64,000 bases of DNA, taken from the IMG/VR virus record IMGVR_UViG_3300037808_002146; one strand, given 5' to 3'. The notes under the pieces were generated by a model. That model was not told the origin of the DNA. It did not search any database and saw only the letters and a program-made list of their open reading frames with translations. Source of the stretch: a virus (Duplodnaviria; Caudoviricetes). This document shows, one piece after another, positions 335-45,300 of this stretch (position 1 is its first letter; each line of letters begins with the position of its first letter). Position numbers and translations under genes: made by a program.

Positions 335-919
335 TTACTCGTTTATGAAATGAGCAAAACATTTAGGCTGATACATTTCCGATCCCCCTACCTCTATTCT
401 TTCATGACCTTCACCTGATATTTTTTCAGTAAAATAAGCATCTTCGCCACAACCGGAACAAACCGCGGGACATATTTGTATGTTAGTAGCCCATGGGAGC
501 ATTTTATTCATTTCTTTATAGGGCTCCCCATTAGAAGAAAGTTGAAGACTAGAAACTAAAACGGTTTTTCCAGATTTATAAATATCTATCAAAACATCGG
601 AAACCCCATCGATCATGAAAGCCTCGTCTAAAGCAACAACGTCTACTTCATGTTGCTTGTTATAGGCGTTAAAATATCGATATAAATCAAAGCTAGAGTT
701 TACCCTAATCATTTTATTAAAATTATCCTTACCGCACTTCCACTCTATGCCAGAATGCGTTACTACCGAATCTTCAGAATACCTTACGTCGACTCTTGGC
801 TTAAAAAGCAAGACATTCTTATTTTGATACTTGTATCTTTCCAAAGCGGAAAGCAACCTAGTAGTTTTTCCACCAAACATAGGACCAGTAAATATTTCAA
901 ATCTAGGGTTATTCTTCAT
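335..919 (-). CDS. tdk: thymidine kinase
   Basis: Walker A GPMFGGKTT, LFKPRVDVRY, Walker B VVALDEAF, zinc-binding CPAVCSGC, and IEVGGSEMYQPKC. Confidence 0.93.
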   Translation of the reverse strand: MKNNPRFEIFTGPMFGGKTTRLLSALERYKYQNKNVLLFKPRVDVRYSEDSVVTHSGIEWKCGKDNFNKMIRVNSSFDLYRYFNAYNKQHEVDVVALDEAFMIDGVSDVLIDIYKSGKTVLVSSLQLSSNGEPYKEMNKMLPWATNIQICPAVCSGCGEDAYFTEKISGEGHERIEVGGSEMYQPKCFAHFINE

Positions 920-1898
920 TAGTACTCCACCAAGCTATAGTTTTATCCAAACCCTCCCTTAAATCTACTTTACTAGTAAAACCTAAGATTTCTCTAGATT
1001 TAGAAATTTCAGCTCTCGTATGCCTAACATCCCCAACTCTCTCTGGGGCATTTATTATCTTTATTTCAAACCTCTCCCTAAGCAAATCAAGTATATCATT
1101 ATTACTATAACTTTTGCCAGTTCCTATATTAAAAATATCGCCTGAAAATTTTGCTTTGTTTAGCGAAGCGATAATATTAGAATCTACAATATCACCAACA
1201 TATACCATATCACGAGTTTGTTCACCGTCGCCGTCGCTTCTGAGTGGCTGTAACCTTTTAATTTTATCCATCCAAGCTGATATTGCTGTAGAATATGGGC
1301 TGTCGCCTAACTGCCCTGGTCCATAAGCATTAAAGTACCTTAAGCAAACGCTGTCTAAGTCGTAAAGCTTCGAGTAAAGAGAACAATAATCTTCGACTAT
1401 TCTTTTTTGAAGTGCATATGGAGATTCAGGGTTAGTCTCTCCGGATTCTATAGATGGAAAATTATCTAAAGAGTTACCATAAATCGCAGATGAGCTACTA
1501 AACACAAACCTTTTAACGTTATCGATGCAAGCTGTCATAAGCAAGACTGATTTTGTAACATTCTGTTCTGTTGTTACAACCGGATTTTTTACAGAATACT
1601 CAACCCTTGGTAATGCTGCTAAGTGGAAAATTATATCGTATTTTTTTTCCGCAATCCTCGATAAAATCTGAGGAGCTGCAAAATCTCCCGTGATTACCAA
1701 AGTTTTATTAGAGTCTTTAGAAGAATCATATCTAGCTAGTAGTCCTGGAGTTATAACCCTAATATCTATAGAAGAGATGTTATCTATGTCTCCATTGGAG
1801 AGATCATCTACAACGTCTACTCTCCACCCTAGATTCACCAGTTTTTTAGTTAGGTTAGAACCAATAAAACCACACCCGCCGGTAACTAAAGCTCTCAT
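909..1898 (-). CDS. NAD-dependent NDP-sugar epimerase/dehydratase (extended SDR, GalE/WbpP-like)
   Basis: VTGGCGFIGS Rossmann motif, HLAA, FSSSSAIYG, catalytic YALQK (YxxxK), LRYFNAYGP, GDGEQTRD. Confidence 0.92.
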   Translation of the reverse strand: MRALVTGGCGFIGSNLTKKLVNLGWRVDVVDDLSNGDIDNISSIDIRVITPGLLARYDSSKDSNKTLVITGDFAAPQILSRIAEKKYDIIFHLAALPRVEYSVKNPVVTTEQNVTKSVLLMTACIDNVKRFVFSSSSAIYGNSLDNFPSIESGETNPESPYALQKRIVEDYCSLYSKLYDLDSVCLRYFNAYGPGQLGDSPYSTAISAWMDKIKRLQPLRSDGDGEQTRDMVYVGDIVDSNIIASLNKAKFSGDIFNIGTGKSYSNNDILDLLRERFEIKIINAPERVGDVRHTRAEISKSREILGFTSKVDLREGLDKTIAWWSTNEE

Positions 1899-3052
1899 AG
1901 TTCTCCCGAAGTTGTCTTTATGTTATCTTGTCTATAATTGGAAAAACCAGAATCTTCTAACTCTCCATGGAGATATTTTATTACTTCGTATGTCATATCT
2001 CTCGCGGTGCAAGTTGGAACATTTTGAGCTACATCATTTAATCTCTTGGTTTGAAGATTAAAGTCAGATGGAAGTCCCATTAGGTGCATTATCTCTCTAT
2101 GACTCATCCCTCGGGGTTGGGTAGGGTGCATTATCATTTGCAAAGTTCTTCCAACTATTGCGTTAGTACATGAATTATAAAAAGCTGGAGAATGATCTAA
2201 AAAACTTTTCCCCATAGACAGCTTGTTTTTGATGTGTTCAAATTTTCTAACTTCTTTGTGTTCTGGGTTGTGTGTTGTAAGCCACTCTAAACATTCATCA
2301 ATCAATTCGTTTCGTACGATAAATTGGTGAATTGAGTGAGCTGGACCAGAACCAAACTCGCCGATAAAGTCTTTATGCGAAAACCCATATTTTTCAAGCA
2401 AAAAAGTGTAAGAAGGGAATTTTTCAAAAATATTGTTTATATTGTATAAGTCTTGTTGTTTTGAACTGCCAGGAATTTTTCCTAAATAATCAATCAAATT
2501 ATCGTGCTCCCTATCATACCAATTCATAATCGGAGCATTTTTCGAATCCCAAAAAAAATAAAATGTTCGCAGCCTCTTTTGAGGAATCCCATGCTTGAAT
2601 GTCGAAGTTCTATATATTGAAAAAGAGTATCCATTATCTTCAGCGATTTGCTTAAGCTGCTCTCTAACGCTATTTCCTGATTTTGTATAAAGGGCTGGAG
2701 CATTTTCTCCCCAGTAAACCTTTGGCCTAAGTTGCTCTAAAACTAGTTTCGATGTTTTCATCATCCAAACATTTTGGCTATCTCTAGTTGACCGATCTTG
2801 ACTGGTATTCAGTTGACTCAATCCCGCACAAGGGCAAACTGAGTTGACAAAATCTAAATTATCTTCTGGCAAAATAGATTCGTCTAAGTCGATTCTCCTA
2901 ACATTAGGCCAGTAGTTAACTAAGTGGTTTTCGTTTTGCTCAAAAGCCTTAAAGCTCAAATGAAACTTGGGTAAGTTTCCAGTTGCTTGGCTACATCCTA
3001 TCGCAGATCCGCCTATTAACGGGATCATAGTAGCCCAAGATATATCACTCAT
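1895..3052 (-). CDS. C5-cytosine DNA methyltransferase-fold protein with atypical motif I
   Basis: Catalytic PC motif IV (VCPCAGLS), motif VI (WGENAP), motif VIII (HGIPQKRLRTFY), motif IX/X (MGLP...AQNVP). Motif I reads IPLIGG instead of FxGxGG. Confidence 0.75.
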   Translation of the reverse strand: MSDISWATMIPLIGGSAIGCSQATGNLPKFHLSFKAFEQNENHLVNYWPNVRRIDLDESILPEDNLDFVNSVCPCAGLSQLNTSQDRSTRDSQNVWMMKTSKLVLEQLRPKVYWGENAPALYTKSGNSVREQLKQIAEDNGYSFSIYRTSTFKHGIPQKRLRTFYFFWDSKNAPIMNWYDREHDNLIDYLGKIPGSSKQQDLYNINNIFEKFPSYTFLLEKYGFSHKDFIGEFGSGPAHSIHQFIVRNELIDECLEWLTTHNPEHKEVRKFEHIKNKLSMGKSFLDHSPAFYNSCTNAIVGRTLQMIMHPTQPRGMSHREIMHLMGLPSDFNLQTKRLNDVAQNVPTCTARDMTYEVIKYLHGELEDSGFSNYRQDNIKTTSGEL

Positions 3053-4446
3053 TTTTTTCTCCTAACCCTCTTTTGCTTGTAACAAGCAAACTCTCTACGA
3101 GCTTTCTTCTCGAAGAAACATAACGATTGATTTGTAACTTGTTTAATACCAACAGCTGGGATTTTTCCTTGTTCGATTATCTTGAGGTAGTCTTCAAAAA
3201 CTCTTTCGCTTTGAAAGAGGTGGGTGAGCATCTCTTTGTCATTTGTGAATTTGTTGTTGTCTTTTCCAGCCTTTAGAATATAGTCAAACATTTCTGGCAA
3301 AACGTTGTCAGCGTTAAACTCTCTATCGATAAAATCAAAACTAGAATCCCTGTATTTTTGTTGCTCTAACGGGTTGTTAGCAATTGATATTAGTTTATCC
3401 GCTGTTTCTCCCAAGTCGTCTCGAGAAGACCAAACAGCTAGATAGTCGTTATCGATGTACTTACTCCCGTTGGAATCAGTGTTATGTTCTCCATAGTGTT
3501 TATCAAAAACAGGAATAGTTCCACATCCTATAATTTCGATTTGTGTATACTCCATCCTATCGCCATAGTTGTGTGGTTCTTTTGGTAGCCGGTAAAAAGA
3601 GCAGCCAAATAAAGAGGTGGAGATTAGATCCATACCGTCAGCATAATCATACGGGCCAAAAGTGGGAACTCCATCAAGATCCCAGTCATAATTTTCAAAC
3701 TTCAAATTATAGATAGAATTTGGGTGATCTATAATATCGAACTTAGCCCCAATAGAGCGTTCAATACCGTGAAGAGCTAAACGAAAAGATGGATCTTTTT
3801 CTTTCATTATAGGATATAAATCTAAAACGCGGCGAGGATCCTTCATAGAAGTCCAGCGACCTACGTAAGTTAGTTTTCGTTCCTTTTCATTTAAGCTAAA
3901 TTTATCCCTATAATTTTTCTTTAATTCAGATAAATCTACCCACATTTTGAATCTCTTTGTTCTTTCCCCTAAGACTTTGCTGGGCAAATATGAGGAAAAC
4001 TCTTTTGAAAAGAAAGTTTTTTCCGAGAAATTATAAACAATATCACAGTAATTTAGAATAGGGATAATCATCGGAATAGCATCGATATTAGCTTTTTTAA
4101 TTTCGTGCATCATTCCAACCAAGACTGGTTTTTTAATCTTTTTAACTAAACCCTCATAAAAAGACATCACTGCTTGAGGAGAATGCTTAGAGGAGGGATA
4201 AGAGTTGAGAATAACTGTATCATATTCGCGGTTTAGCTTCTCAACCAGAGAGGGGATCTCTGTATGCTTAAACTCAATTGGCTCAATTGGCATAGAGTGC
4301 CCTTTAGCTCTAGCAAAGCTTCGTCCTTTCATAAAAAATATATCAAATTTGACATCATTCCTTTGCGCCCAAGTAGCAATCTCAACTGCTCCTCTTTGAA
4401 CGCCACAGCCATCAAGCCCTTTGCCAAAAATCATAGCAATTTTCAT
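3049..4446 (-). CDS. agt: DNA alpha-glycosyltransferase, T4 Agt-like (GT-B fold)
   Basis: Collinear matches to T4 alpha-glucosyltransferase as recalled: GKGLDGCGV (ARGLEGCGV), LNSYPS (INSVPA), MHE (QHD), YVGRWTSMK (WIGRTTTWK), HGIERS (EGLERS), MEYTQIEIIGCGTIPVFDK (LEYTHLELGACGTIPVFWK). Confidence 0.85.
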   Translation of the reverse strand: MKIAMIFGKGLDGCGVQRGAVEIATWAQRNDVKFDIFFMKGRSFARAKGHSMPIEPIEFKHTEIPSLVEKLNREYDTVILNSYPSSKHSPQAVMSFYEGLVKKIKKPVLVGMMHEIKKANIDAIPMIIPILNYCDIVYNFSEKTFFSKEFSSYLPSKVLGERTKRFKMWVDLSELKKNYRDKFSLNEKERKLTYVGRWTSMKDPRRVLDLYPIMKEKDPSFRLALHGIERSIGAKFDIIDHPNSIYNLKFENYDWDLDGVPTFGPYDYADGMDLISTSLFGCSFYRLPKEPHNYGDRMEYTQIEIIGCGTIPVFDKHYGEHNTDSNGSKYIDNDYLAVWSSRDDLGETADKLISIANNPLEQQKYRDSSFDFIDREFNADNVLPEMFDYILKAGKDNNKFTNDKEMLTHLFQSERVFEDYLKIIEQGKIPAVGIKQVTNQSLCFFEKKARREFACYKQKRVRRKK

Positions 4447-4898
4447 TTATTTTTTCTCCCCGTTTTTAAGACTCTTTCCCTCAACTGCGTAGTAGAGAAA
4501 GAATGCCTCCTATTATTATAATGGATAGGACATAAGTCAACGCCTGTATGGTTTGTGCCTTTGTACTCTTCTCCAACTACCCTAATGTCTGGGTTTATTG
4601 TCAAGATTACATCAACTAAATCTTTTTCAGAACCAAATGGAATTATTTCATCTACATATTTGCATGCAGCTAACTGCAAATATCTTTCCATAATACTTTG
4701 AATTGGCTTATTCTTTATTTCTGGACGATCGTTTGTAGGATCTGTCAAGAGTCCTACGATCAAGTAATCACAAAGCGATTTACTTTCCTGCAGCATCACA
4801 ACATGTCCAGCATGGAATAAGTCGAAAGTAGAACACGTAAAACCAACAATCGGATCTCTTCCCAAGCTTTCTGCTAGTTTCTTTTTATCTAAAAACAA
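4443..4898 (-). CDS. cytidylyltransferase-family nucleotidyltransferase (TagD/RfaE-II-like)
   Basis: FTCSTFDLFHAGH (HxGH), LIVGL, CKYVDEI, C-terminal FSTTQLR. Small single-domain size. Confidence 0.88.
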   Translation of the reverse strand: MFLDKKKLAESLGRDPIVGFTCSTFDLFHAGHVVMLQESKSLCDYLIVGLLTDPTNDRPEIKNKPIQSIMERYLQLAACKYVDEIIPFGSEKDLVDVILTINPDIRVVGEEYKGTNHTGVDLCPIHYNNRRHSFSTTQLRERVLKTGRKNK

Positions 4899-5973
4899 TT
4901 TTTACTTCCTTGAAAATATCTTGAATTCTTTTTCTTACAAGGCTTTTTTGGTTTTCGGGCTTATACTTTAGCATTCTGATATAATGAATCATCTCGCACA
5001 ATAAGAAATACCTAGAAAAATTAGGTTTAAATAACCCAAGTAGATGACTAAAAAGATCCTCTTTATCAACTTTAGCTTCAAAACCAGAAAAACTTTCTTC
5101 GTAAGAAGAGTGTAAAGATTGATATATCTTTCCAACGTCCATAACCCAAGAACTATATACATTTCCTGGACAATTAGGGTCTATGAGGTATACTTTTTCA
5201 CCTCTAACGATGCAATTTTCAAAAGTAAGATCTCCATGAGAAAAGCTAGCTTCGATATTCATAAAATCAGCAACTTGATCGCTTTCTAAGAGTTTAATAA
5301 TATCACTTTCGTTTCTTACAGCGTTTAAAGACATATGATCTTTAACACGATCAACCATAGTTTGCCAATTGCTGTTAGTAACTTTTATATCACTAAACCT
5401 TGTTAGCAAATCTACCAAATAATCTATGTGCTCTTTGGTGCATACATCATTTAAGCTAACTCCGTCCAAGAACTCCATGTCCAAAGTATCTCCATAATAA
5501 GTATTAACTTTTGGAACATGACATAAACTACCAGCTGAATTATACCAGTGTGCTTGGTCTTTAGCGTTGCTAGCTTTTTTGATGATTCTATCACCAACTT
5601 TCTCTACAGAGCCTCCCGATCCACCTTTTAAGACTTCATAGTCTAAATCCATAAATTCCTCTGGGCGGATTGCTTTATCGTCGATGTAGTATACCCCGAT
5701 TGGTTTTCCAAACATCAAACTGTGATACTTCACGCTGTGTTTCTCCATCCAAGACTCTAAAACTGGTCGACGAAGCTGGTTTATTAAGTCTAAGTCTCCG
5801 CTACATGAAACCTGTCCTCGAGCGGTAAAATATATAATTTTCCAACCCGATTCATACATCTTGTTAAGTTTGTTGATAATTTTAGTATGAGGAACTGCAT
5901 TTTCATAATCACGATTCCGATGTGTAGATATCGTGTCATCAACATCGACGACTAGAGTTCGTGTTTCTACCAT
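4885..5973 (-). CDS. fusion of a short HAD phosphatase and an APH/choline-kinase-like phosphotransferase (start revised to ATG 5973, 362 aa)
   Basis: HAD motifs VVDVDDT, YFTARG, FGKP and YYIDDKA, then kinase motifs HGDLTFEN and LIDPN. The ATG overlaps the dut stop codon (TAATG). Confidence 0.8.
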   Translation of the reverse strand: MVETRTLVVDVDDTISTHRNRDYENAVPHTKIINKLNKMYESGWKIIYFTARGQVSCSGDLDLINQLRRPVLESWMEKHSVKYHSLMFGKPIGVYYIDDKAIRPEEFMDLDYEVLKGGSGGSVEKVGDRIIKKASNAKDQAHWYNSAGSLCHVPKVNTYYGDTLDMEFLDGVSLNDVCTKEHIDYLVDLLTRFSDIKVTNSNWQTMVDRVKDHMSLNAVRNESDIIKLLESDQVADFMNIEASFSHGDLTFENCIVRGEKVYLIDPNCPGNVYSSWVMDVGKIYQSLHSSYEESFSGFEAKVDKEDLFSHLLGLFKPNFSRYFLLCEMIHYIRMLKYKPENQKSLVRKRIQDIFKEVKIVFR

Positions 5974-6410
5974 TAAATTACTCCTGTACTCCCAAAACCA
6001 CCTTCGCCTCTTTGGGAATTTACACAAAATAAATCCTCAATGCAAACTTCCTCGATAGAATCGTAAAAAACTGGAACTAAAATCATTTGTACTAGTTTTT
6101 CACCAGCACAAATAGTTTCTGCTTTGTTTCCAAAATTGTAAACATGGAGATGGATTTCACCTTGATAGTCTTCATCTACGATACATGCGCCAACGGATAA
6201 ACTTCTCTTTAAAGCAACCCCGCTTTTATTAAAAACTATTAAAGCAAACCCATTAGGTACGTTCGCTTTTACGCCACTAGGAATGCAAGCTGAGTTTCCT
6301 GGTTCAACGACAAAATTTTCAAAATCGTTAGGGACAAAGAAATCTATACCGGCAGATTTTTCAGTTCCCCTAATTGGGGTTTTTACATCTTTAATTTTAG
6401 AAATCTTCAC
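5973..6410 (-). CDS. dut: trimeric dUTPase (start revised to GTG 6410)
   Basis: Motifs SAGIDF, NKSG, IVDEDYQGEI, EKLVQMI, RGEGGFGSTG. The GTG has an upstream GAGG and overlaps the previous stop (GTGA). Confidence 0.93.
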   Translation of the reverse strand: MKISKIKDVKTPIRGTEKSAGIDFFVPNDFENFVVEPGNSACIPSGVKANVPNGFALIVFNKSGVALKRSLSVGACIVDEDYQGEIHLHVYNFGNKAETICAGEKLVQMILVPVFYDSIEEVCIEDLFCVNSQRGEGGFGSTGVI

Positions 6411-6685
6411 AGTTTTTCCTCTTTTATAAAATTGTGCCAAGCGCCTAAATAGGCAACAGCATCTAACAAATTGTCATCTTTGAAATTATAAGATTGGCGG
6501 CTTAGTTTGAGGGCAACAAGTGATATATACATATCATGAGCTGTAATATCCTTTCCGGACATGCCTCTAGCGATACTAGCAGCTCTTTGCATCCCTTCAC
6601 CAAAAGGTCCATACTCTCTTTCTTTTTCTTCAGATCTTTCGTTGACGATTTGATTTGCTTGCTTTAAGATATTGTCTTTATTCAT
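6407..6685 (-). CDS. small all-alpha protein, DUF6378-like, possible nucleotide pyrophosphohydrolase (start revised to ATG 6685, 92 aa)
   Basis: ILKQANQIVNERSEEKEREYGPF, LVALKLSR and DNLLDAVAY resemble phage DUF6378-type helical proteins. It lies between the TS homologue and dut. Confidence 0.5.
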   Translation of the reverse strand: MNKDNILKQANQIVNERSEEKEREYGPFGEGMQRAASIARGMSGKDITAHDMYISLVALKLSRQSYNFKDDNLLDAVAYLGAWHNFIKEEKL

Positions 6686-7508
6686 CACTAAAAATTTCTC
6701 CACTGCAGTTTTTAACATAATCGTATATTTCAGCTTTTTCAACCTCTGCGATAGGAAAAGAAAAATTTTCATTAATCAACTTCCAGTTAACGTTACTGTT
6801 CAATCTACAAGTATCTAATCCTTTGTCAACATTAAAGTCACTACTATTTATACTTTCAATCATTTTGTAATGCTTTTCATAAACATGCAAGCTACCAGCG
6901 TAGTGAAAGTAACTCCCTAGTTCTAAGCTCATGCCAGTTTCGTTTAGTTCATTCAACATAAGCTGCTGAAATAGCGAAAAGGTGAAAACATCGTTACACA
7001 AACCGAAAATTAAATCGTTAGATCTCATATTAACGCCTAGGTGGAGTTTATTATCCCTAACGAAAAACTGAATATAGTGCGTGCAAGGATAGTCTTTTGA
7101 ATTCTTGAACTTATGATAAGGTTGATTTATCACAAAAGTTGCACGGCGAGTATCTCGATCAATTATAATCTCGTTTTTCACCCAGTTCCATTGCGGTTTT
7201 AGATAGACTCCATAATTGGATTCAACTTCGCAAAATTGATCTGAAATCATTTTCCATATTTTAGCTAATTTCCCGATATTTAAGGAAGAAGAATTAGCAG
7301 ACAAGTACCACATCCACTCTGCTATGGCATAATTTTTGTTAAATTTTCTCTCTGGTAGCGTAACGTTAATACGCGTAGGATCTGAAATTTCAAAGCTTTG
7401 GAATATCACTTCCTTTTGTTTGGAGTTTCTTGCATTCACTTCAGGAGAATCTAGTAAAACAGAGCTATAGTGTTTTAGTAGATGGTTTATAGAGTTAAAT
7501 TTATTCAT
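6678..7508 (-). CDS. thymidylate-synthase-family enzyme, dCMP hydroxymethylase-like (T4 gp42 type)
   Basis: Catalytic Glu (IAEWMWY) and Cys (YPCTHYIQF), then MRSNDLIFGLCND and GSLHVY. Asp occupies the position where dUMP enzymes have Asn (E. coli ThyA N177), as in T4 gp42 (RSNDVVFGFRND). Confidence 0.8.
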   Translation of the reverse strand: MNKFNSINHLLKHYSSVLLDSPEVNARNSKQKEVIFQSFEISDPTRINVTLPERKFNKNYAIAEWMWYLSANSSSLNIGKLAKIWKMISDQFCEVESNYGVYLKPQWNWVKNEIIIDRDTRRATFVINQPYHKFKNSKDYPCTHYIQFFVRDNKLHLGVNMRSNDLIFGLCNDVFTFSLFQQLMLNELNETGMSLELGSYFHYAGSLHVYEKHYKMIESINSSDFNVDKGLDTCRLNSNVNWKLINENFSFPIAEVEKAEIYDYVKNCSGEIFSDE

Positions 7509-7513
7509 GTAAT

Positions 7514-7542
7514 ATTATACTTCAAAAATCTTAATTTTTCTA
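7514..7542 (-). promoter_or_regulatory. sigma70-like promoter TAGAAA-N17-TATAAT, 5 nt before the ATG of the modification operon (likely leaderless mRNA)
   Basis: Embedded in the dnaE 3' end. No Shine-Dalgarno sequence fits between TATAAT and the ATG at 7508. Confidence 0.55.
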
Positions 7543-10500
7543 AATTGAGTTGAAAAGCCAAAATCAGACTTATCAAGTTCGGCAACACAAAGTGAGTAAG
7601 GATTCAAAATAGAATCTTCTTTCGTACCCCAACAGAATACCCTATTTTTTTCCCCATTAGATCCTATAGCATCTAAAAGAAAGTAAGGCTTATTGTTTTT
7701 AGTTTTCTTTTTATTAACCTTAGTAGCTACTAGCCAATAAAGATTTTTTTGATTCCACTCTTCTATAGGGAGGATAGATAACTCTTCAAACCTGCTAGAT
7801 AACTTTTCAGGAATTAAATTACCAACATTTATAGTTCCAAGTAAAGATTCTTCAAACTCCATATTTTCTTTAATGCTCCAGTCTTCACTCGGGTAATTTA
7901 GAGAAACTTCGTTCAAATTGTCTCTTCCTTGAAAAGGATTCTTTTTAGTGCTCTTTCTTAATGCTGGCCAATTTTCGCTAACACATTCGTAGAATTGCTT
8001 GTAAGATTCAAAATAACCTTGCCAATCTAGGGAATCCAGTGCTCTAATCTTCAGGAGAGATTCGAGAGTCTTTTTATTTAATTTTGAGTGTTTCCACTTG
8101 CCATCTTCATTCCAGAGCAGATCATCAATATTTTCATAAGGTCGGTTGTTAAGTATCTCTTCAATAGCTGCCTCGCCTATGCCTTTACAGGAAAAGAAAG
8201 ATGGCATCAAAACCTTATCGTCGACTGGTGTCCAATTTTTTCCAGCTTTATTAAGGTCAATATTTGTTGTCGTGTATCCCAACTTTTTAACTTCACTCAA
8301 TGCTTTGGAAAGCTTGTTTGGATTAGACGAAACTGCTTCGAGGTAAGCGGTTATCCATTCAGCCTCGTAGTAAGTCATTAGCCAAGCGCAATAGTACGAA
8401 TTTATAGCATAAGAAACAGCATGTGACTTATTGAAACCGTAGCCAGCAAAATACAAAATCTTCTCGTAGAGATCTTCGGCGACGTGCTTTTGAACTCCAT
8501 TAGAAATAGATCCGGCAAGGAACTTATCTTTAAGATCTCGAGCTTTTTCGATATTTTCATTTCCAGAACCAACAGGCTTCATCATCTTACGCATTGCGTT
8601 ACATTCGTCTTTCGGGATACCCGCGACGACATGACATAAGTTCATGACTTGCTCTTGAAAGATTATACAACCATAAGTTTCTTTCAAACATTCTTCAATA
8701 AGCGGATGGCCATAAACTACACTTTCTGGATTCTTTTTTGCTCCAATATAAAGTTTATCTACCTTAGCACTCAGCGGGCCAGGACGGTATATAGACGTCA
8801 GAGTTGCGATATCTATTATTGATTCTGGTTTAGCACGCTTAAAGAGGGCTTGAGCGCCCCTCTGCGTGCACTGGAATATAGCAGCCCACTTTCCAGAATG
8901 ATAGACATTTTTATAAACTTTTTGATCGTTAAAATCAATTTCTTTAGTTGACATATTGACATCGAACCATTTTTTCACTTGTTGAAAATCTGGATTTTCA
9001 ATACCCTCTTTCTTAAGAACCAGTCTAATAGTTTGCTCAATTATTCTCAAAGTTTCTAATCCAAGCAAATCAAACTTAATCCACCCAAACTCTTCTAAAT
9101 GCTTATAGTTCATACCTTCAACCCACGGAGTTTGAACTTCTCCACGAGCTAAAATTACAGGCATCCTCTCGGCAATTCTTTCTGAAATTATAACACCACC
9201 AGCGTGGCGACCGAGAGCTTTGTTTTGCTTGAATAAAACCTTTAGAGGATCAAGTATTTCTGGATACTTTTCTAAATAGTTCTTCAAAGATTCTGAGTAC
9301 TTTAAAGCTTCATCAATATGAATATCGAAAGAATCTTCTGATTCTGCATCGTTCTTCCGTCCTCTCTTTACATCTACTTCCAATGGAGCTAAAGCTTTGT
9401 TTGCTTCTTCGAATGGGACTCTATAAAACCTCGAAACGTCCTTAATCAATGACTTCAACTTAAAGGTGTTATAATTCGAAATTGGTACAACATTTGATTC
9501 TCCAAAGTTATCCCTTAATAAAGATATTAACTCGTCACGGTCTCCTACATCAGAATCGATGTCTGGCATTTCGTTTCTCTCTGGAGATAAAAATCTTTCA
9601 AAAAGCAAACCGTTAGAAACTGGATCAACATCCGTGATTCCTAAAGCGTAATTCACCAAACTACCCGCGCCAGAGCCTCTGCCCGGGCCGATGAGCATTT
9701 TTTCTCGCGCAATATCGAGGATAGCTTTCATCGTTAGAAAATATTCGGAAAAATTCTTGCTTTTTATAACCACGAACTCTTCTCTCAATCTCTCAATATA
9801 GATAGGGTTTTCATGTAGACCTCGATCTATCAAGCCTTTCTTACAAAAATCTAAAAGAGCTTGAGTTGCTGTTTTTCCTTTAGGGATTACATAAGATGGT
9901 AATTTCATGCTTCGATCTGGGTTGATGTCTCCAATCTCGTCGTGGACTATGTTGTATGGACGTTCAATAGCTTCGCAAATTATTTGATCGTCGTAAAAAT
10001 CCATGTCAGAAGTTGTACTTAAGTAAGAATCCCACACTTGCTCTGCGTTTTTTGGATAAAGTTCGCAAGAAAGATCGCTTTGAGATTTAGGTAAAGAGTC
10101 TGGATCAAAGTCTCTGAAGTTAAGCCAGCCAAGCTTTTTGTATATTTCTCTTTCCCTCCAGTGTTCCGGGCGAGCGTAATGTGAATCTGTCGTAACTACC
10201 AACTTGTCTGTTAAACCTTGAGATTTTGCAAATTCAATTATAGATCTATTGACCAAGTGCTGAGCCGGAAGCTTGTTAAACTGTAACTCTAACATTACGT
10301 CGTCTATTCCGACGGAATCTACCAAGCCTTGATATGCATTTCCTACGCCATTCATAACTTTGCTTCGAAAAGAGTTATCATCTAAGAGTGTATGACTAAG
10401 ATCGTTAAACTCTACTTGTTGGGCATGCCTAAAAACTTCATAAGCGATTGGGCCGCCTATACATGCAGTAGAAACCATCAAATGACCTCCTTCGGCGGCT

Positions 10501-11096
10501 TCTTTTAACATCTTATAGTCAATCCTAGGAAATCTATAGAAACCTTCTAGGTAACCTTTAGAGACTAAGTTAAAAAGCCTAGACAAGCCTTCTGATGTTT
10601 TTGGAAGGACAACCAAGTGGTGACGCCTCTTGACAGGATCATAAAACTTTGCTGATTTTGATTCTTCCTCGTTTTCAATAGTCAAACTTCCTTCGTCCGT
10701 AGAGAGTTCTACCGTTTCATCGTCTCCATCTACTTTGGCGAACAGTGGAGTTCTAATTCTCTCTCTTTGTTCTCTAAGCTTTAGAATAGACTCTTTGTCG
10801 CCTTTCTTTGCAGCTTTAGCTAATTCATAATCCAGATTCCAAATATCTAGATTTGGGTGAACATACATTTCACATCCGGGGACAAACTTAAAATTACCTC
10901 CACGCTTTTTAATTTTCTCTGCATGCAAGAAAGCGTGAGCAAAACTGTTCATGTGACCATGATTAGTGAGACACCAGCTATCCATCCCGTTTTCTAAAAC
11001 AAAATCTATGTGTTCTTGTGGATATCCCAAGCCATCGAAGGTTGAAAAACCATCATGTGCATGGAGGGAGGTAAACTTTTTTGGAACAATTTTCAT
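7515..11096 (-). CDS. dnaE: DNA polymerase III alpha subunit (family C, DnaE-like)
   Basis: PHP domain (LHAH, TNHG, GCEMY, HHL, STAC, TDSHY), GPGRGSGAGS, catalytic PDIDSD and KFDLLGL, YGFNKSHA, HhH and OB fold. The protein ends after the OB fold. Confidence 0.96.
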   Translation of the reverse strand: MKIVPKKFTSLHAHDGFSTFDGLGYPQEHIDFVLENGMDSWCLTNHGHMNSFAHAFLHAEKIKKRGGNFKFVPGCEMYVHPNLDIWNLDYELAKAAKKGDKESILKLREQRERIRTPLFAKVDGDDETVELSTDEGSLTIENEEESKSAKFYDPVKRRHHLVVLPKTSEGLSRLFNLVSKGYLEGFYRFPRIDYKMLKEAAEGGHLMVSTACIGGPIAYEVFRHAQQVEFNDLSHTLLDDNSFRSKVMNGVGNAYQGLVDSVGIDDVMLELQFNKLPAQHLVNRSIIEFAKSQGLTDKLVVTTDSHYARPEHWREREIYKKLGWLNFRDFDPDSLPKSQSDLSCELYPKNAEQVWDSYLSTTSDMDFYDDQIICEAIERPYNIVHDEIGDINPDRSMKLPSYVIPKGKTATQALLDFCKKGLIDRGLHENPIYIERLREEFVVIKSKNFSEYFLTMKAILDIAREKMLIGPGRGSGAGSLVNYALGITDVDPVSNGLLFERFLSPERNEMPDIDSDVGDRDELISLLRDNFGESNVVPISNYNTFKLKSLIKDVSRFYRVPFEEANKALAPLEVDVKRGRKNDAESEDSFDIHIDEALKYSESLKNYLEKYPEILDPLKVLFKQNKALGRHAGGVIISERIAERMPVILARGEVQTPWVEGMNYKHLEEFGWIKFDLLGLETLRIIEQTIRLVLKKEGIENPDFQQVKKWFDVNMSTKEIDFNDQKVYKNVYHSGKWAAIFQCTQRGAQALFKRAKPESIIDIATLTSIYRPGPLSAKVDKLYIGAKKNPESVVYGHPLIEECLKETYGCIIFQEQVMNLCHVVAGIPKDECNAMRKMMKPVGSGNENIEKARDLKDKFLAGSISNGVQKHVAEDLYEKILYFAGYGFNKSHAVSYAINSYYCAWLMTYYEAEWITAYLEAVSSNPNKLSKALSEVKKLGYTTTNIDLNKAGKNWTPVDDKVLMPSFFSCKGIGEAAIEEILNNRPYENIDDLLWNEDGKWKHSKLNKKTLESLLKIRALDSLDWQGYFESYKQFYECVSENWPALRKSTKKNPFQGRDNLNEVSLNYPSEDWSIKENMEFEESLLGTINVGNLIPEKLSSRFEELSILPIEEWNQKNLYWLVATKVNKKKTKNNKPYFLLDAIGSNGEKNRVFCWGTKEDSILNPYSLCVAELDKSDFGFSTQFRKIKIFEV

Positions 11097-42338: not shown

Positions 42339-45300
42339 TTATTCAAAAGAAACTCCACTATTCGTTATCACAAAATCAACTGCGATAAACTCGATCGCGC
42401 GTGTCGGAACAACGACTATGCGACCGTTTAATTTATTACCCTCGACATCCTCGGGGCTATTATTTGTATCATCCATAATGACTCGAAAACTATCAATACC
42501 TGCTTGTGCCTGAACAGTCGCTAATAACGGGGTTACTAAATTGATAAATCGAGCTCGAGTTTCTGCATTGTTTGGCTCAAATAATAATCGTTGAGCTATT
42601 CCTGTAATTAATCTCTTAATTTCTAAGAGCAATCTTCTTACATTAACTCTATCTAAGGCTGATTGAGCCATTTGAAGAGTTTTTTGACCGAAGATGACGA
42701 ATCCACCATTCGGAAAATTAGCGATCGGATTAATTCTAGCATCATAAAGTTCGTCGCGATCGCCAGCTGTTAGTCTGATATCGACGCTGCTTACATTGTC
42801 TAAGGCGCCACGATTAAAACCAGCTGGAGCAAACCACGGAAAAGATACCGAGTCGCTGAAGGCTAGTGCTTTAATTGCTGCGGTTGATGCCGGCAATTTA
42901 ACTTGCGTTGAGTTAACACTATCAGCTAAAACAATATCTGGAAAATAAGTTGCTGTATAATTGTTATCAATCACTCTAGATGAAAGTTGCTCTGAAGTTT
43001 CTCTAACATCTGGAACTGATTTTTCTAGTTTGGAAAATTCCGTTCTATCTTCAGTACCAAACAGTCTAGTTCCGTCTTGCGAATATCCTGGGATATCCAT
43101 AAGATAAAGTGCGAGAGAATATTCTCTAACTTTTTCGCTAGCAAAATCTGTAACGAAAGAATCCCTAATGCCTGGAATCGATAGAATGTTGTGTCTTACA
43201 GACATTGGATCAGTCATGATAGAAACAGCTTGTCGATAAGAAACTACTGTGCTATTTTTTTGACCAACCCCTGGTTTACCAGAGTTTAATCCCGTTTGAG
43301 AAGTAAAAGCCGAATTAAATTCGCTAGAAGCTTTTCCAAAAAAGTTGGTTGGAGCATCAGTGCTTGTACTTCGGTCGTTCATCAATGAAATATCTTTGTC
43401 TAGTGAATTCAAACCATCAAACCCACCAAAGAGTGGAAGGGTGAATTTGTTATAAACTGTAAATCTATTAAATTTGACCGAAGAGCTTGCAAGAAGCGTA
43501 GCCATTGTAACTCGGCTGCCATAAGCACCATCAGCTATTGAATAGTTTGTATTATCTAACTCTTGATTTCTCATATAGACTGCTTCAAGCATATGTTCTT
43601 TAGCAGAACCAGTAACATATTCTGCAATGTTCGTTTGAACGTTTGAACCAATTTTGTTTAAAGCAACTCTTGCAAGAGTGAATTTATTAGAGTTAAAAGA
43701 ATCGACTGCTGAACCTGTTAAGAGAGCCCCAGTTTTTGCTAAGCCTTGAAATTTAGTATAACCAGTAATTAACTCATTAAACATTTCACCGGCATTAGGA
43801 TTTCTAGCTGCATCATTTATAGATCCAGTCCTAGGGAGTCTTTCAGATTTCATTCCCCAATATAATTTTGAATCGACTTTTTCGGTTAATGCCGGATTGC
43901 CAGATGGATCACTTGCCGCCACGGCCGATGCGATAGGCATAGCGCCACGCGTAACTTTATACCTCATAGGTAAAGGAGGAAAGATTGGAGAATTTAAGCT
44001 AGGACTCTCGCGGTCATCAAAATCTATAAGAGTCATCGTATGAATTCTATTCGCATCCGTCAACGATGCGTCAGTCGCAGCATGCTTTAAAGATCCTACA
44101 GTCGCAGCATCACCAACAGGTATAATTCGCCCTAAGGGGGCGCCGCCTGCGGTGAGGGTCTCTAGCGTTGAATCTGTTAAGGAATCAGTTGTCTTAAGTA
44201 CCGGAATTCCTCTAAACCCGAATGGCAAAGAAGAAGATGGGCATTCTCCCCGTCCGTGCTTGTCGCTCATGACTACTCTTATGTGTAAAGAGCGATTAGG
44301 ATATTTTCCGGAAATTATTAATCTTCTCTCTTCTTCCAAATCGGCATCGAAGTTAAAAACAGCTTTATAGTCGCCAATAACTCTTGCAACAAAATTTTCT
44401 GAATTTGGATCTAAAGAGCAGCCAGGATACGACTCTACAATTTCTGGATCTGTATCTAGATCCCTAAGTTTTCTTACTTGGACTTCAAAAGTTCCATAAG
44501 GTTGTTTTGGATCAAGGCTAGCTTTAATATTAGCAATACTAACCTTTACGTCCATATTTCCACTCGAGCCATCGCTTAGCGACTCAAAATGCATTAGATC
44601 AAATTCTTGTGAACCAAAAGGCTGGCTAATGATAGCAGGGGTTTTTGCTGTTCTATATCTAGAATCTAGTCGACCCAAAACAGACCACGCTTTTCTATCA
44701 GCTGCGGATGATAAGGCAGAATCTGTAATTTCTTTCTTAGACGGGGTTGATACGAAAACTTTAGTAGCCGATGCTAACTCGTCTTCTACAGGCAAATCTA
44801 AGTAAAGTAAATGTTTTTCTTTTTCAAATTTATGAGGATCAGTATTTAAAACTTTGCTTATATAAGAAGGGTGTTCTGGATCTAAGCTTGCTTTAGTGTT
44901 CTTAAGGACTGTTCCTGAGGCATCTACAATTTGTAACCTAAATTCTGAAGTTGTTATTGCTGCCTGAGCGTCTGTTTTAATCACTCCAGCCGCAACCGTG
45001 TACGTCGCAGTTGTAGCCATAGCTACTAAACGGTGTCCGCTGCTAGTATAAACAACACCTCTCAAGAGTTGGGTAGTTGCTGCACCAGTAATGCTATCGT
45101 TATCGACAAAAATTGGGTATGATTCTCGACACTCTTGAGATTTTGTAGCTTCATTAATATCATGAGTAGCAGTGATTAAGTTAACGCCACCAGAGAGTAG
45201 CATCGCAGCTGTTGCGCCAGATGTGTCTGTCCCGTTAGCAGCTGTAATGTTAGCTCTGTTTGCTGAAGCCTCGACTCCCTGAATGCGAAAGCCTGCGCCT

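What the first reader, a model, noticed from the sequence alone, without database searches (positions are those of the whole stretch)
335..7542. Nine-gene cytosine hypermodification operon that appears to build its own, possibly non-glucose, donor
Seen in the sequence: nine consecutive genes, each overlapping the next by 1-14 nt, start from one sigma70-like promoter (7514-7542) and end before the next promoter (304-332). They encode a gp42-type TS homologue, a DUF6378-like protein, dUTPase, a HAD/APH fusion, a cytidylyltransferase, an Agt homologue, a C5-MTase-fold protein, an NDP-sugar epimerase and TK. Established: T4 uses gp42 to make hmdCMP and Agt to transfer glucose from host UDP-glucose, with no donor-synthesis genes, whereas RB69-type phages that arabinosylate carry extra donor-synthesis genes. 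Inference: here kinase/phosphatase, nucleotidyltransferase and epimerase make a dedicated NDP-sugar or CDP-polyol that the Agt homologue attaches to 5-hydroxymethyl (or 5-hydroxy) cytosine, and the MTase-fold enzyme may add a further step. I do not recognise this combination from T4 or RB69, so it may produce an undescribed base and give resistance to restriction and CRISPR nucleases.
Basis: partly seen in the sequence, partly recalled or inferred. Interest (0 to 1): 0.92.

Follow-up and report, generated by a model that had tools for sequence, protein, structure and literature searches.

The report
Phage sugar-hydroxymethylcytosine DNA modification operon
An uncultured marine giant phage carries nine tightly coupled genes that most likely replace cytosine with 5-hydroxymethylcytosine and attach a phage-made, probably non-glucose sugar to it; this kind of cluster is already known from virome mining, and a similar three-enzyme core has been shown to make heptosyl-hydroxymethylcytosine.

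Summary
Nine minus-strand genes (335-7508) overlap by 1-14 nt, and all nine family assignments were confirmed. The same order is kept in five IMG/VR contigs under strong purifying selection. The promoter claim is weak.

- The TS homologue has the T4 gp42 signature (ThyA L143D, C146, D169, N177D). It should make 5-hydroxymethyl-dCMP, not the 5-hydroxy-dCMP of RB69.
- The HAD half of the fusion is an AfhF-family phosphatase and the other half has an APH/choline-kinase fold.
- The Agt homologue keeps T4's UDP-binding residues but has lost two of three glucose-contact histidines. That loss is seen only in Agt homologues that sit beside kinase, phosphatase and nucleotidyltransferase genes.

The combination is not unprecedented. 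Pyle et al. (bioRxiv 2023.12.21.572611) showed that a HAD/APH fusion, a cytidylyltransferase and a GT-B transferase together make mono- and di-heptosyl-5hmC.

Two things may be new. This is a ThyS-type cluster using a GT72 transferase plus an epimerase. A motif-complete C5-methyltransferase clade also sits beside sugar genes or transferases in most of the 86 loci examined, with a gp42-type TS homologue close by in 40, and with no known role there.

Verdict: new variant of a known kind. The sugar is unproven.

The parts
6678..7508 (-). gp42-type dCMP hydroxymethylase (TS homologue, 276 aa)
   Evidence: PF00303 3.8e-15. Best PDB match is T4 dCMP hydroxymethylase 1b5e, 1.9e-20. Alignment A1 and one search give D139 (ThyA L143), C142 (C146), D165 (D169) and D173 (N177).
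6407..6685 (-). DUF6378 protein (92 aa from the ATG at 6685); possible all-alpha NTP pyrophosphohydrolase, unproven
   Evidence: PF19905 5.7e-10. Start choice. Invariant RSEEKER.YGP motif (A6). Four-helix model, pLDDT 77. Foldseek found nothing. The best VIA match, 2p06 at Z 7.3, plus MazG-related 2yxh and pyrophosphatase 4qgp at Z 5.6-5.7, are all below the tool's bar for helical bundles.
5973..6410 (-). dUTPase-fold enzyme (145 aa from the GTG at 6410)
   Evidence: PF00692 1.8e-21 and TIGR00576 3.1e-29. It follows TS-DUF6378 in the window-, L018- and L019-type clusters.
4885..5973 (-). Bifunctional HAD phosphatase (AfhF/EcbF-BcbF family) fused to an APH-fold kinase (362 aa)
   Evidence: TIGR01689 2e-23. 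PDB 1xpj 1.8e-19 and 9iqw 6.5e-15. The HAD half is 39% identical to the Bas46 phosphatase of the arabinose cluster. Model pLDDT 92. The kinase half matches fructosamine-3-kinase, choline/ethanolamine kinases, APH and methylthioribose kinase. Catalytic residues are invariant in 45 homologues (A5).
4443..4898 (-). PF01467 nucleotidyltransferase (HldE domain II / TagD / ECT type, 151 aa)
   Evidence: PF01467 9e-16. TIGR02199 6e-20 and TIGR01518 1.1e-17, both below their cut-offs. phrog_7878 1.5e-32. PDB 3elb 3e-21 and 1coz 1.5e-17. 66% identical to the L013 orthologue.
3049..4446 (-). DNA glycosyltransferase of the T4 alpha-GT family (GT-B, 465 aa, about 70-aa basic C-terminal extension)
   Evidence: PF11440 38 bits against a cut-off of 25. 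phrog_2888 3.8e-98. Full-length alignment to 1xv5, 4.4e-19. G15, R204, K209, E306 and E311 are kept. H116 is Ile and H140 is Phe. 45.5% identical to phage G gp306.
1895..3052 (-). C5-cytosine DNA methyltransferase of a phage-specific clade (385 aa)
   Evidence: PF00145 2e-16. Motifs I-X are conserved over 120 homologues. At least 859 protein clusters and at least 587 IMG/VR hits. It lies next to sugar genes or GTs in most of the loci mapped.
909..1898 (-). GalE-type NDP-sugar epimerase (SDR, 329 aa)
   Evidence: PF01370 2e-47. The nearest PDB entries are 6wjb/6wj9, 4zrm, 6dnt, WbgU and WbpP at 129-168 bits; GalE scores about 90 bits and the heptose epimerase HldD 86 bits. No NCBIfam cut-off is reached.
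335..919 (-). Thymidine kinase (194 aa)
   Evidence: PF00265 6.9e-35 and NF003296 1.5e-35. MTase-epimerase-TK is kept in the sister lineage, which has a different middle cassette.
7514..7542 (-). Promoter-like match overlapping the end of the DNA polymerase gene
   Evidence: TAGAAA-17-TATAAT, 10 of 12 matches. It is conserved in relatives but confounded by coding sequence and a stop codon. There is no statistical excess of such sites.
7515..11096 (-). DNA polymerase (1193 aa) directly upstream; possibly in the same transcription unit
   Evidence: phrog_405 3.2e-222. The homologous gene in L019 carries PHP and DNA_pol3_alpha domains. Only 6 nt separate it from the TS start.

Best explanation
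This is a pre-replicative (thymidylate-synthase-type) cytosine hypermodification cluster of an uncultured marine jumbo myovirus.

Step 1 (inferred from active-site residues). The gp42-type enzyme converts dCMP to 5-hydroxymethyl-dCMP, which is built into phage DNA. The dUTPase-fold enzyme and TK manage the pyrimidine pools, and DUF6378 probably does too, although its function is unproven.

Step 2 (inferred from homology and a published analogue). The APH-fold kinase phosphorylates the anomeric position of a host sugar phosphate. The fused AfhF-type HAD phosphatase removes the distal phosphate. The PF01467 nucleotidyltransferase then turns the sugar-1-phosphate into an NDP-sugar. This is the same chemical logic as ADP-heptose and UDP-arabinose synthesis. 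A heptose is the leading candidate. The GalE-type epimerase sets the final stereochemistry of that donor or supplies another one.

Step 3 (inferred). The Agt-family GT-B enzyme, whose glucose pocket is altered, transfers the sugar to 5hmC in DNA.

Step 4 (open). The C5-methyltransferase is a real SAM enzyme that most likely methylates cytosines that escaped replacement.

The expected result is DNA resistant to restriction and CRISPR nucleases.
For: - TS signature: D-C-D-D at ThyA positions 143/146/169/177. T4-type and Xp15 enzymes give the same pattern, the Bas46 and Acj9 5hoC synthases have N at 169, and a canonical ThyA gives L-C-D-N. The criteria come from PMC13326640.
- Fusion protein: HAD DxD/K/DD residues and kinase GGSG/K/HGD..N/D residues are invariant. 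AfhF-family homology is shown, and the APH fold.
- Published precedent: a HAD/APH fusion, a CTP-transferase and a GT-B enzyme are all required to make mono- and di-heptosyl-5hmC in E. coli (Pyle et al.).
- Orthologous HADkin-CTase-AGT-MTase modules occur in distant phages: L013 (37/66/48/38% identity) and L079/L080.
- Agt pocket: the HDH..H residues are kept in five of six Agt homologues from clusters without donor genes (a sixth, beside an epimerase, has V at 114). H-E-I/L..F (N-E-I..F in L013) is found in all nine Agt homologues that sit beside kinase/HAD/NT genes of three different architectures.
- In the published subclass II clusters, GT activity depends on the partner epimerase.
- All nine genes are under purifying selection.
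Against: - No product chemistry exists for this phage.
- The published heptose triad uses a GT4-like transferase and MT+TET-derived 5hmC, not a GT72 enzyme and ThyS. I could not compare its sequences with those here.
- No GmhA/SIS isomerase was found in relatives' records, and the host is unknown, so heptose-7-phosphate supply is unproven.
- The epimerase is closer to UDP-Glc/GlcNAc 4-epimerases than to HldD. It also stays in the sister lineage, whose middle cassette is different, so it may not act on the cassette's donor.
- No dNMP kinase or proven dCTPase was identified.
- A methyltransferase has no substrate if replacement by 5hmC is complete.
Confidence: 0.68

Rival explanations
1. The sugar is a pentose, as in the RB69/HY126 Afh pathway. 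The kinase and AfhF-like phosphatase would make a pentose-1-phosphate (arabinose, or ribose later epimerised), which is activated and transferred to the base.
For: The HAD half is 39% identical to the Bas46 arabinose-cluster phosphatase and matches 1xpj and 9iqw. Related clusters (L018, L052, L059) use an AfhE-like NTP-transferase/kinase protein beside the same MTase clade.
Against: There is no arabinose-5-phosphate isomerase in the cluster or in relatives' records. The nucleotidyltransferase belongs to a different fold class from the AfhE N-terminal domain. The TS lacks the D169N signature of 5hoC synthases that accompanies arabinosylation. The closest published triad gives heptose.
Confidence: 0.12
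2. The donor is a CDP-activated alcohol or polyol phosphate (glycerol, ribitol, ethanolamine or choline type). The GT-B enzyme would then act like TagF and add a phospho-alcohol to 5hmC.
For: The nucleotidyltransferase's best solved relatives are ethanolamine-phosphate and glycerol-3-phosphate cytidylyltransferases. The kinase half resembles choline and ethanolamine kinases.
Against: The transferase aligns over its full length with T4 alpha-GT and keeps its UDP-phosphate and ribose contacts. A fused phosphatase has no role in a kinase-then-cytidylyltransferase route. rfaE domain II scores slightly better than the TagD model. The published triad makes a glycoside.
Confidence: 0.08
3. The DNA carries ordinary glucosyl- or galactosyl-5hmC made from host UDP-hexose, with the epimerase giving UDP-Gal. 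The HAD/APH and nucleotidyltransferase genes would only boost or salvage the host sugar-nucleotide pool.
For: The epimerase belongs to the UDP-Glc/GlcNAc 4-epimerase group. Published epimerase-plus-GT pairs make Hex, HexNAc or HexA adducts from the E. coli pool. Minimal TS-AGT-MTase clusters exist without donor genes.
Against: Those minimal clusters keep the glucose-contact histidines, while this Agt clade has lost two of the three. The donor genes are translationally coupled to the transferase and co-inherited with it across distant phages.
Confidence: 0.1

Closest known systems
Metavirome 'contig 53' cluster of Pyle, Lund, O'Toole and Saleh (bioRxiv 10.1101/2023.12.21.572611): HAD/APH bifunctional enzyme + cytidylyltransferase + GT-B DNA glycosyltransferase, making mono- and di-heptosyl-5hmC
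   Same: It has the same three-part donor-plus-transfer architecture: a HAD fused to an APH-fold kinase, a CTP_transf-like enzyme and a GT-B transferase acting on 5hmC in DNA. A C5-MTase is part of that cluster class too.
   Different: There, 5hmC is made after replication by C5-MT plus a TET-like dioxygenase, and the GT is GT4-like (best match BshA). Here a gp42-type TS makes the base before replication, the GT belongs to the T4 alpha-GT family (GT72), an epimerase is present and no dioxygenase was found. Sequence relatedness to contig 53 could not be tested because I had no sequences for it.
T4 glucosyl-hydroxymethylcytosine pathway (gp42, gp56, gp1, alpha-GT, beta-GT)
   Same: The TS homologue carries the gp42 active-site signature. 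The transferase aligns end to end with T4 alpha-GT and keeps its UDP contacts.
   Different: T4 takes host UDP-glucose and has no donor genes, no epimerase and no C5-MTase. Here two of three glucose-contact histidines are replaced. The dCTPase and dNMP kinase equivalents are not identified.
RB69 / DLP3 / HY126 arabosyl-5-hydroxycytosine (Afh) cluster (Lee et al., NAR 2026, PMC13326640)
   Same: It uses kinase-then-HAD-phosphatase-then-nucleotidyltransferase logic. The HAD domain is a true homologue of the Afh phosphatase, and the cluster sits beside the DNA polymerase gene.
   Different: The Afh TS homologue has D169N and makes 5-hydroxy-dCMP. The Afh pathway needs an arabinose-5-phosphate isomerase and a GT-A-fold nucleotidyltransferase fused to the kinase. 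Its transferases are not of the alpha-GT family. It has no C5-MTase or epimerase.
Bacillus phage G gp301-gp319 region
   Same: It holds the closest cultured relative of the transferase (gp306, 45.5% identity; gp313, 42%), with the same H-E-I/L..F pocket. Kinase (gp311), HAD (gp310) and nucleotidyltransferase (gp309) genes lie between the two GTs, and a C5-MTase (gp301) and a TS (gp319) are nearby.
   Different: The kinase, HAD and nucleotidyltransferase are separate genes, and the nucleotidyltransferase is of the glucose-1-phosphate thymidylyltransferase type. There are two GTs. The MTase is only 25% identical. Phage G's sugar and base are also uncharacterised (PMC6024577).
Bacterial ADP-L-glycero-D-manno-heptose pathway (GmhA, HldE, GmhB, HldD)
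   Same: The reaction order is the same (1-kinase, distal phosphatase, PF01467 nucleotidyltransferase, SDR epimerase), and the nucleotidyltransferase resembles HldE domain II.
   Different: The kinase has an APH fold, not a pfkB fold. The HAD is of the EcbF/BcbF subfamily, not GmhB. No GmhA is present. The epimerase and nucleotidyltransferase both score far below the HldD and HldE family cut-offs.

Membership tests
T4 gp42-type dCMP hydroxymethylase | Catalytic Cys (ThyA C146) and Asp in place of ThyA N177 (dCMP specificity) | tested here: met
   C142 and D173 in A1, in the alignment to 1b5e and.
T4 gp42-type dCMP hydroxymethylase | Acidic residue at ThyA L143 (water access) and Asp kept at ThyA D169 (hydroxymethyl, not hydroxy, product) | tested here: met
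   D139 and D165. The Bas46 and Acj9 5hoC synthases show N at 169 in the same alignment. Criteria from PMC13326640.
T4 gp42-type dCMP hydroxymethylase | Formation of 5-hm-dCMP from dCMP and methylene-THF | not testable with these tools
   Needs an enzyme assay or in vivo LC-MS.
T4 DNA alpha-glucosyltransferase family (PF11440, GT72) | Family profile match above the cut-off and a full-length GT-B alignment | tested here: met
   PF11440 38.0 bits against a cut-off of 25. Residues 1-392 align to 2-401 of 1xv5 at 4.4e-19.
T4 DNA alpha-glucosyltransferase family (PF11440, GT72) | UDP contacts G15, R204, K209, E306 and E311 | tested here: met
   All five are conserved.
T4 DNA alpha-glucosyltransferase family (PF11440, GT72) | Glucose-contact residues H114, H116 and H140 (as listed in PMC6024577) | tested here: not met
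   H114 is kept, H116 is Ile and H140 is Phe. The protein is a family member but is not predicted to be a glucosyltransferase.
Afh arabinosyl-5hoC pathway (RB69/HY126) | 5hoC synthase with D169N | tested here: not met
   Asp is retained.
Afh arabinosyl-5hoC pathway (RB69/HY126) | Arabinose-5-phosphate isomerase (SIS domain) | tested here: not met
   None among the nine genes. PF01380 is absent from four relatives' records, and the control genomes were positive. Those records are incomplete.
Afh arabinosyl-5hoC pathway (RB69/HY126) | AfhF-type HAD phosphatase | tested here: met
   39% identity to the Bas46 phosphatase, E 2e-15. PDB 1xpj and 9iqw.
Afh arabinosyl-5hoC pathway (RB69/HY126) | AfhE: a GT-A-fold nucleotidyltransferase fused to the kinase | tested here: not met
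   Here the kinase is fused to the HAD, and the nucleotidyltransferase is a separate PF01467 protein.
HAD/APH + CTP-transferase + GT-B heptosyl-5hmC cluster (Pyle et al. contig 53) | HAD/APH bifunctional enzyme, cytidylyltransferase and GT-B DNA GT encoded together | tested here: met
   for the proteins, and for adjacency. The description of contig 53 is.
HAD/APH + CTP-transferase + GT-B heptosyl-5hmC cluster (Pyle et al. contig 53) | 5hmC supplied by C5-MT plus a 5-methylpyrimidine dioxygenase | tested here: not met
   A C5-MT is present, but there is no dioxygenase among the nine genes. PF12851 was not found in four related records, though that search had no positive control. A ThyS is present instead.
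HAD/APH + CTP-transferase + GT-B heptosyl-5hmC cluster (Pyle et al. contig 53) | Heptose product; sequence orthology to the contig 53 proteins | not testable with these tools
   No contig 53 sequences were available. GT53 is reported as GT4-like, unlike the GT72 enzyme here.
ADP-heptose pathway enzymes HldE domain II and HldD | Equivalog-level match to TIGR02199 and TIGR02197 | tested here: not met
   71.5 bits against a cut-off of 181.5, and 138.6 bits against 274.6.
C5-cytosine DNA methyltransferase (PF00145) | Motifs I-X, including the PC catalytic Cys, ENV, QxRxR and the motif X Asn | tested here: met
   PLIGGSA.GC, NE, LD, CPCAGLS, GENAP, Q.R.RTFYFFW, RE..H.MG.P.DF and AQNVP are invariant or nearly so in 120 homologues. 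PF00145 60.8 bits against a cut-off of 22.
C5-cytosine DNA methyltransferase (PF00145) | SAM-dependent methylation of DNA cytosine, and its target motif | not testable with these tools
   The Pfam match starts only at residue 50 and motif I is atypical, so activity and specificity need an experiment.

The most novel reading that the evidence does not exclude
A phage-specific C5-methyltransferase clade is a fixed partner of pre-replicative 5hmC-glycosylation clusters. In most of the 86 loci mapped it sits next to a transferase or a sugar gene, whatever sugar pathway is used. A gp42-type TS homologue lies within 10 kb in 40 of them, and farther off on the same record in another cluster type. Its role there would be undescribed. 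One option is methylating the cytosines that escape replacement, so that no C stays unmodified. A less likely option is using Cys-C6 covalent catalysis on 5hmC itself. Alongside this, the H-E-I..F subclass of alpha-GT homologues would be natural heptosyl (or other non-hexose) transferases that fully decorate a giant marine phage genome.
Probability: 0.25. Interest if true: 0.72.

Novelty: new variant of a known kind. Interest (0 to 1): 0.55.

Why it matters
Sugar-decorated cytosines let phages escape restriction enzymes and CRISPR nucleases. They are also a source of enzymes for DNA labelling and epigenetic sequencing.

This cluster gives a natural, abundant marine example in which the hydroxymethyl base is made before replication and the sugar donor is made by the phage itself. 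The same sequence is held by seawater metagenomes from at least 16 studies.

Two practical predictors come out of the analysis. The residue at ThyA-169 separates 5hm from 5ho chemistry. The H116/H140 pair in Agt homologues separates users of host UDP-glucose from users of a phage-made donor.

The recurring pairing of a C5-methyltransferase with hydroxymethylase-type clusters is unexplained. It is directly testable by expressing the enzyme and mapping its methylation.

Tried and rejected
- Megablast of the region against 50,697 phage records found nothing.
- No whole genome is held for the window.
- The 5-hydroxycytosine reading was rejected on the D169 signature.
- The idea that the MTase is a degenerate, SAM-less fold was rejected, because all motifs are conserved.
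- DUF6378 as a MazG-like dCTPase is not established. Foldseek found nothing at E <= 0.001, a profile search of PDB sequences found nothing, and the protein atlas returned only DUF6378 clusters. VIA gave only weak all-alpha pyrophosphatase-type hits with Z below 8.
- BLAST finds no similarity between the kinase half and the AfhE C-terminal domain. Only the fold is shared.
- SIS isomerase was not found in relatives. Tet_JBP was not found either, but that search had no positive control.
- The 336-aa neighbour of the MTase in L020-type clusters was suspected to be a TET. It looks like a GT8-type GT-A transferase instead, and the 249-aa protein looks like a sliding clamp.
- Promoter-driven operon boundaries have no statistical support.
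- No RNA run and no raw-read or long-read run holding the sequence was listed, so neither transcription nor a base-modification signal could be examined.
- The literature on S-TIM5-like cyanophages, the only cultured carriers of the MTase clade besides a Pseudoalteromonas phage, gave nothing on their DNA chemistry.

Full report
**The observation**

The window carries nine consecutive minus-strand ORFs between 335 and 7508. I chose start codons by ribosome-binding sites and by the gene calls of the public protein collection.

Every family call was reproduced:
- thymidylate-synthase homologue
- DUF6378
- dUTPase
- a protein with a HAD domain (TIGR01689) followed by a kinase-like half
- a PF01467 cytidylyltransferase-like protein
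- a PF11440 alpha-glucosyltransferase homologue
- a PF00145 C5-methyltransferase
- an SDR epimerase
- thymidine kinase

The window belongs to a large myovirus. It encodes two long sheath paralogues, a major capsid protein, a portal, ribonucleotide reductase, DnaB and a large DNA polymerase. No cultured phage is close at the DNA level. Near-identical sequence occurs in seawater metagenomes from at least 16 studies. A sister phage record of 293 kb with terminal repeats is complete, so this is a marine jumbo phage.

The cluster is real and conserved. Four IMG/VR contigs carry all nine genes in the same order, and a fifth, truncated contig carries the first seven. Amino-acid identity is 55-89%. 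Synonymous sites are saturated while dN is 0.08-0.38.

- The TAGAAA-17-TATAAT match at 7542-7514 exists, but promoter-like sites are fewer than in shuffled sequence (27 against 36.6).
- The TATAAT contains the stop codon of the polymerase gene, which ends 6 nt before the TS start. Its conservation in relatives is therefore not independent evidence.
- The scan found no promoter at 304-332 and no terminator after TK.

**The base**

The NAR 2026 paper on RB69 and DLP3 (PMC13326640) gives residue criteria in E. coli ThyA numbering:
- N177D means dCMP is the substrate.
- L143D/E means the product is not a methyl group.
- D169N marks 5-hydroxy-dCMP synthases.

In alignment A1, and in a wider alignment, the window enzyme has D139, C142, D165 and D173. 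That is the T4 gp42 pattern. The Bas46 and Acj9 enzymes from arabinosylating phages show Asn at position 169 in the same alignment, and a canonical ThyA shows Leu-Cys-Asp-Asn.

The best solved relative is T4 dCMP hydroxymethylase. Another relative, in Xanthomonas phage Xp15, sits two genes from a carbamoyltransferase gene. The MetaGPA paper characterised a 5hmC carbamoyltransferase that makes 5-carbamoyloxymethylcytosine, so that neighbour also points to a hydroxymethylase. The predicted precursor is therefore 5-hydroxymethyl-dCMP, not 5-hydroxy-dCMP.

**The donor pathway**

The HAD half of the fusion matches PDB 1xpj and 9iqw. It is 39% identical to the phosphatase of the Bas46 arabinose cluster, which places it in the AfhF family.

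A model built on 45 homologues (pLDDT 92) shows that the second half has the fold shared by APH, choline kinase, fructosamine-3-kinase and methylthioribose kinase. The catalytic residues of both halves are invariant.

The nucleotidyltransferase has the HldE-domain-II / TagD / ECT fold and does not reach any equivalog cut-off. The epimerase is closest to UDP-Glc/GlcNAc 4-epimerases and more distant from HldD.

The fusion implies consecutive steps. A kinase makes a sugar 1,n-bisphosphate, the phosphatase removes the distal phosphate, and the nucleotidyltransferase activates the sugar-1-phosphate. This is the logic of both ADP-heptose and UDP-arabinose synthesis.

The decisive literature point is Pyle et al. 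(bioRxiv 10.1101/2023.12.21.572611). A metavirome cluster encoding a HAD/APH bifunctional enzyme, a cytidylyltransferase and a GT-B DNA glycosyltransferase needed all three to make mono- and di-heptosyl-5hmC in E. coli. In other clusters of that study, GT activity depended on a partner epimerase. Their survey of about 25,000 contigs already lists APH, epimerase and methyltransferase genes as neighbours of ThyS-associated GT-B enzymes. The combination is therefore not unknown, and heptose is the best-supported guess for the sugar. The phage's own product remains untested.

**The transferase**

It aligns over its full length with T4 alpha-GT and is 45.5% identical to phage G gp306. I mapped the T4 residues named in PMC6024577 onto 16 homologues.
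- The UDP contacts G15, R204, K209, E306 and E311 are kept in all of them.
- The glucose contacts split the family in two.
- Five homologues in minimal TS-AGT-MTase clusters, which have no donor genes, keep H114-D115-H116 and H140. A sixth homologue without donor genes, L078, sits beside an epimerase and has V-D-H..H.
- All nine homologues that sit beside kinase, HAD and nucleotidyltransferase genes have I or L at 116 and F at 140 (H-E-I/L..F, or N-E-I..F in L013). They are the window and its relatives, L013, L079, L052 and both phage G proteins.
- Those nine are paired with three different donor-gene architectures: a HAD-kinase fusion plus PF01467; a HAD plus an AfhE-like fusion; and three separate genes.

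This is clade-level evidence that the subclass uses a phage-made, non-glucose donor.

**The methyltransferase**

It keeps every C5-MTase motif across 120 homologues, so an inactive or re-purposed fold is unlikely. The clade is large, with at least 859 protein clusters and at least 587 IMG/VR hits.

I mapped gene order in 86 loci (with Pfam and atlas checks). In most of these loci the gene lies immediately after, or one gene away from, a glycosyltransferase or a sugar-nucleotide enzyme. The neighbours include Agt homologues, other GT-B, GT4-like and GT25 transferases, UDP-galactopyranose mutase, UDP-glucose dehydrogenase and epimerases.

A TS homologue lies within 10 kb in 40 of the 86 loci. 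In the one common cluster type that lacks a TS nearby, a TS with the same signature lies about 55 kb away in the two longest records. Every TS examined from these clusters has the D-C-D-D hydroxymethylase signature.

Published work links phage C5-MT clades to TET-like dioxygenases that make 5hmC after replication at GpC sites (PMC8256090). Here the partner is a pre-replicative hydroxymethylase, and I found no dioxygenase, although that search lacked a positive control.

What a C5-methyltransferase does in a genome whose cytosines should already be 5hmC is unexplained. The simplest idea is that replacement is incomplete and the enzyme covers the remaining cytosines.

**The other genes**

TS-DUF6378-dUTPase at one end and MTase-epimerase-TK at the other form a frame. 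The sister lineage keeps this frame while replacing the HAD-kinase, nucleotidyltransferase and Agt cassette with a different one.

dUTPase and TK are best read as pool and salvage enzymes. DUF6378 stays unassigned. It has an invariant acidic motif and a four-helix model, but Foldseek and sequence-profile searches gave no match, and structural hits to all-alpha pyrophosphatase-type proteins were weak. No dNMP kinase was identified.

**Verdict**

The kind of system is already in the literature, and a functional precedent exists for its core triad.

Three things differ from that precedent:
- the pre-replicative source of 5hmC
- an alpha-GT-family transferase with a remodelled sugar pocket
- the retained epimerase and methyltransferase

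I rate it a new variant of a known kind. The sugar identity and the methyltransferase's role are the open questions worth testing.

Noticed in passing
L019:603-9704; also L025-L028 and L034 (IMG/VR and JGI contigs; sister lineage of the window phage, one record 293 kb with terminal repeats): The frame is the same as in the window (DNA pol - TS - DUF6378 - dUTPase ... MTase - epimerase - TK). The HAD-kinase/nucleotidyltransferase/Agt cassette is replaced by a 356-aa unknown, a myo-inositol-1-phosphate synthase, a Methyltransf_21 protein, a 138-aa unknown and a 484-aa protein with the helical domain of 5-hmdU DNA kinase. This is a candidate for a different, undescribed cytosine modification, possibly phosphorylation of 5hmC followed by substitution.
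   Followed up: partly
L012:3369-10285 (contig of a 2.6-Mb MAG, NCBI GCA_045606085.1): A phage-like region carries the HAD-kinase fusion, a PF01467 nucleotidyltransferase and a TET-associated glycosyltransferase (PF20691). A 544-aa C5-MTase lies upstream and a ParB plus radical-SAM pair lies downstream. There is no TS homologue on the contig. The genome's only TS is a canonical ThyA on another contig.
   Followed up: partly
window:3049-3270 (-), C-terminal residues about 393-465 of the Agt homologue: A roughly 70-residue extension absent from T4 alpha-GT ends in a strongly basic tail. It could bind DNA or the sliding clamp. T4 alpha-GT is reported to co-purify with gp45 (PMC13216743).
   Followed up: no
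window:7506-7520 (-): The TS start codon has no purine-rich ribosome-binding site in the window, and a TATAAT ends 5 nt before it. Translation could be leaderless or coupled to the polymerase gene. Relatives have GAGG 12 nt upstream.
   Followed up: partly
window:12124-12930 (-): A complete Fpg/Nei-type DNA glycosylase (three Pfam domains) is encoded by the phage, close to the replication and modification genes.
   Followed up: no
window:23410-24567 (-) and 7515-11096 (-): The phage has a 385-aa family-A DNA polymerase domain protein as well as the large 1193-aa DNA polymerase directly upstream of the cluster (whose L019 homologue is Pol III alpha-like). It also encodes RecA, a gp32-like SSB, a 5'-3' exonuclease, a ClpP-like protease and a DnaJ-domain protein.
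   Followed up: no
window:38046-42314 (-) and 42339-45620 (-): Two adjacent, very long tail-sheath paralogues (1422 and 1093 aa) have the sheath domain only at the C-terminus.
   Followed up: no
L052:9968-12384 and L054 (IMG/VR 3300042691): Two tandem copies of the MTase-clade gene follow the HAD - AfhE-like - Agt genes.
   Followed up: no
L104 (Cyanophage S-TIM54; also S-TIM5, S-TIM61, S-TIM66) and Pseudoalteromonas phage vB_Psh_XG4: These are the only cultured phages in the collection with a member of this MTase clade (29-33% identity). In S-TIM54 it lies next to a ThyA gene and a 560-aa unknown. They would be tractable systems for testing the methyltransferase's role.
   Followed up: partly
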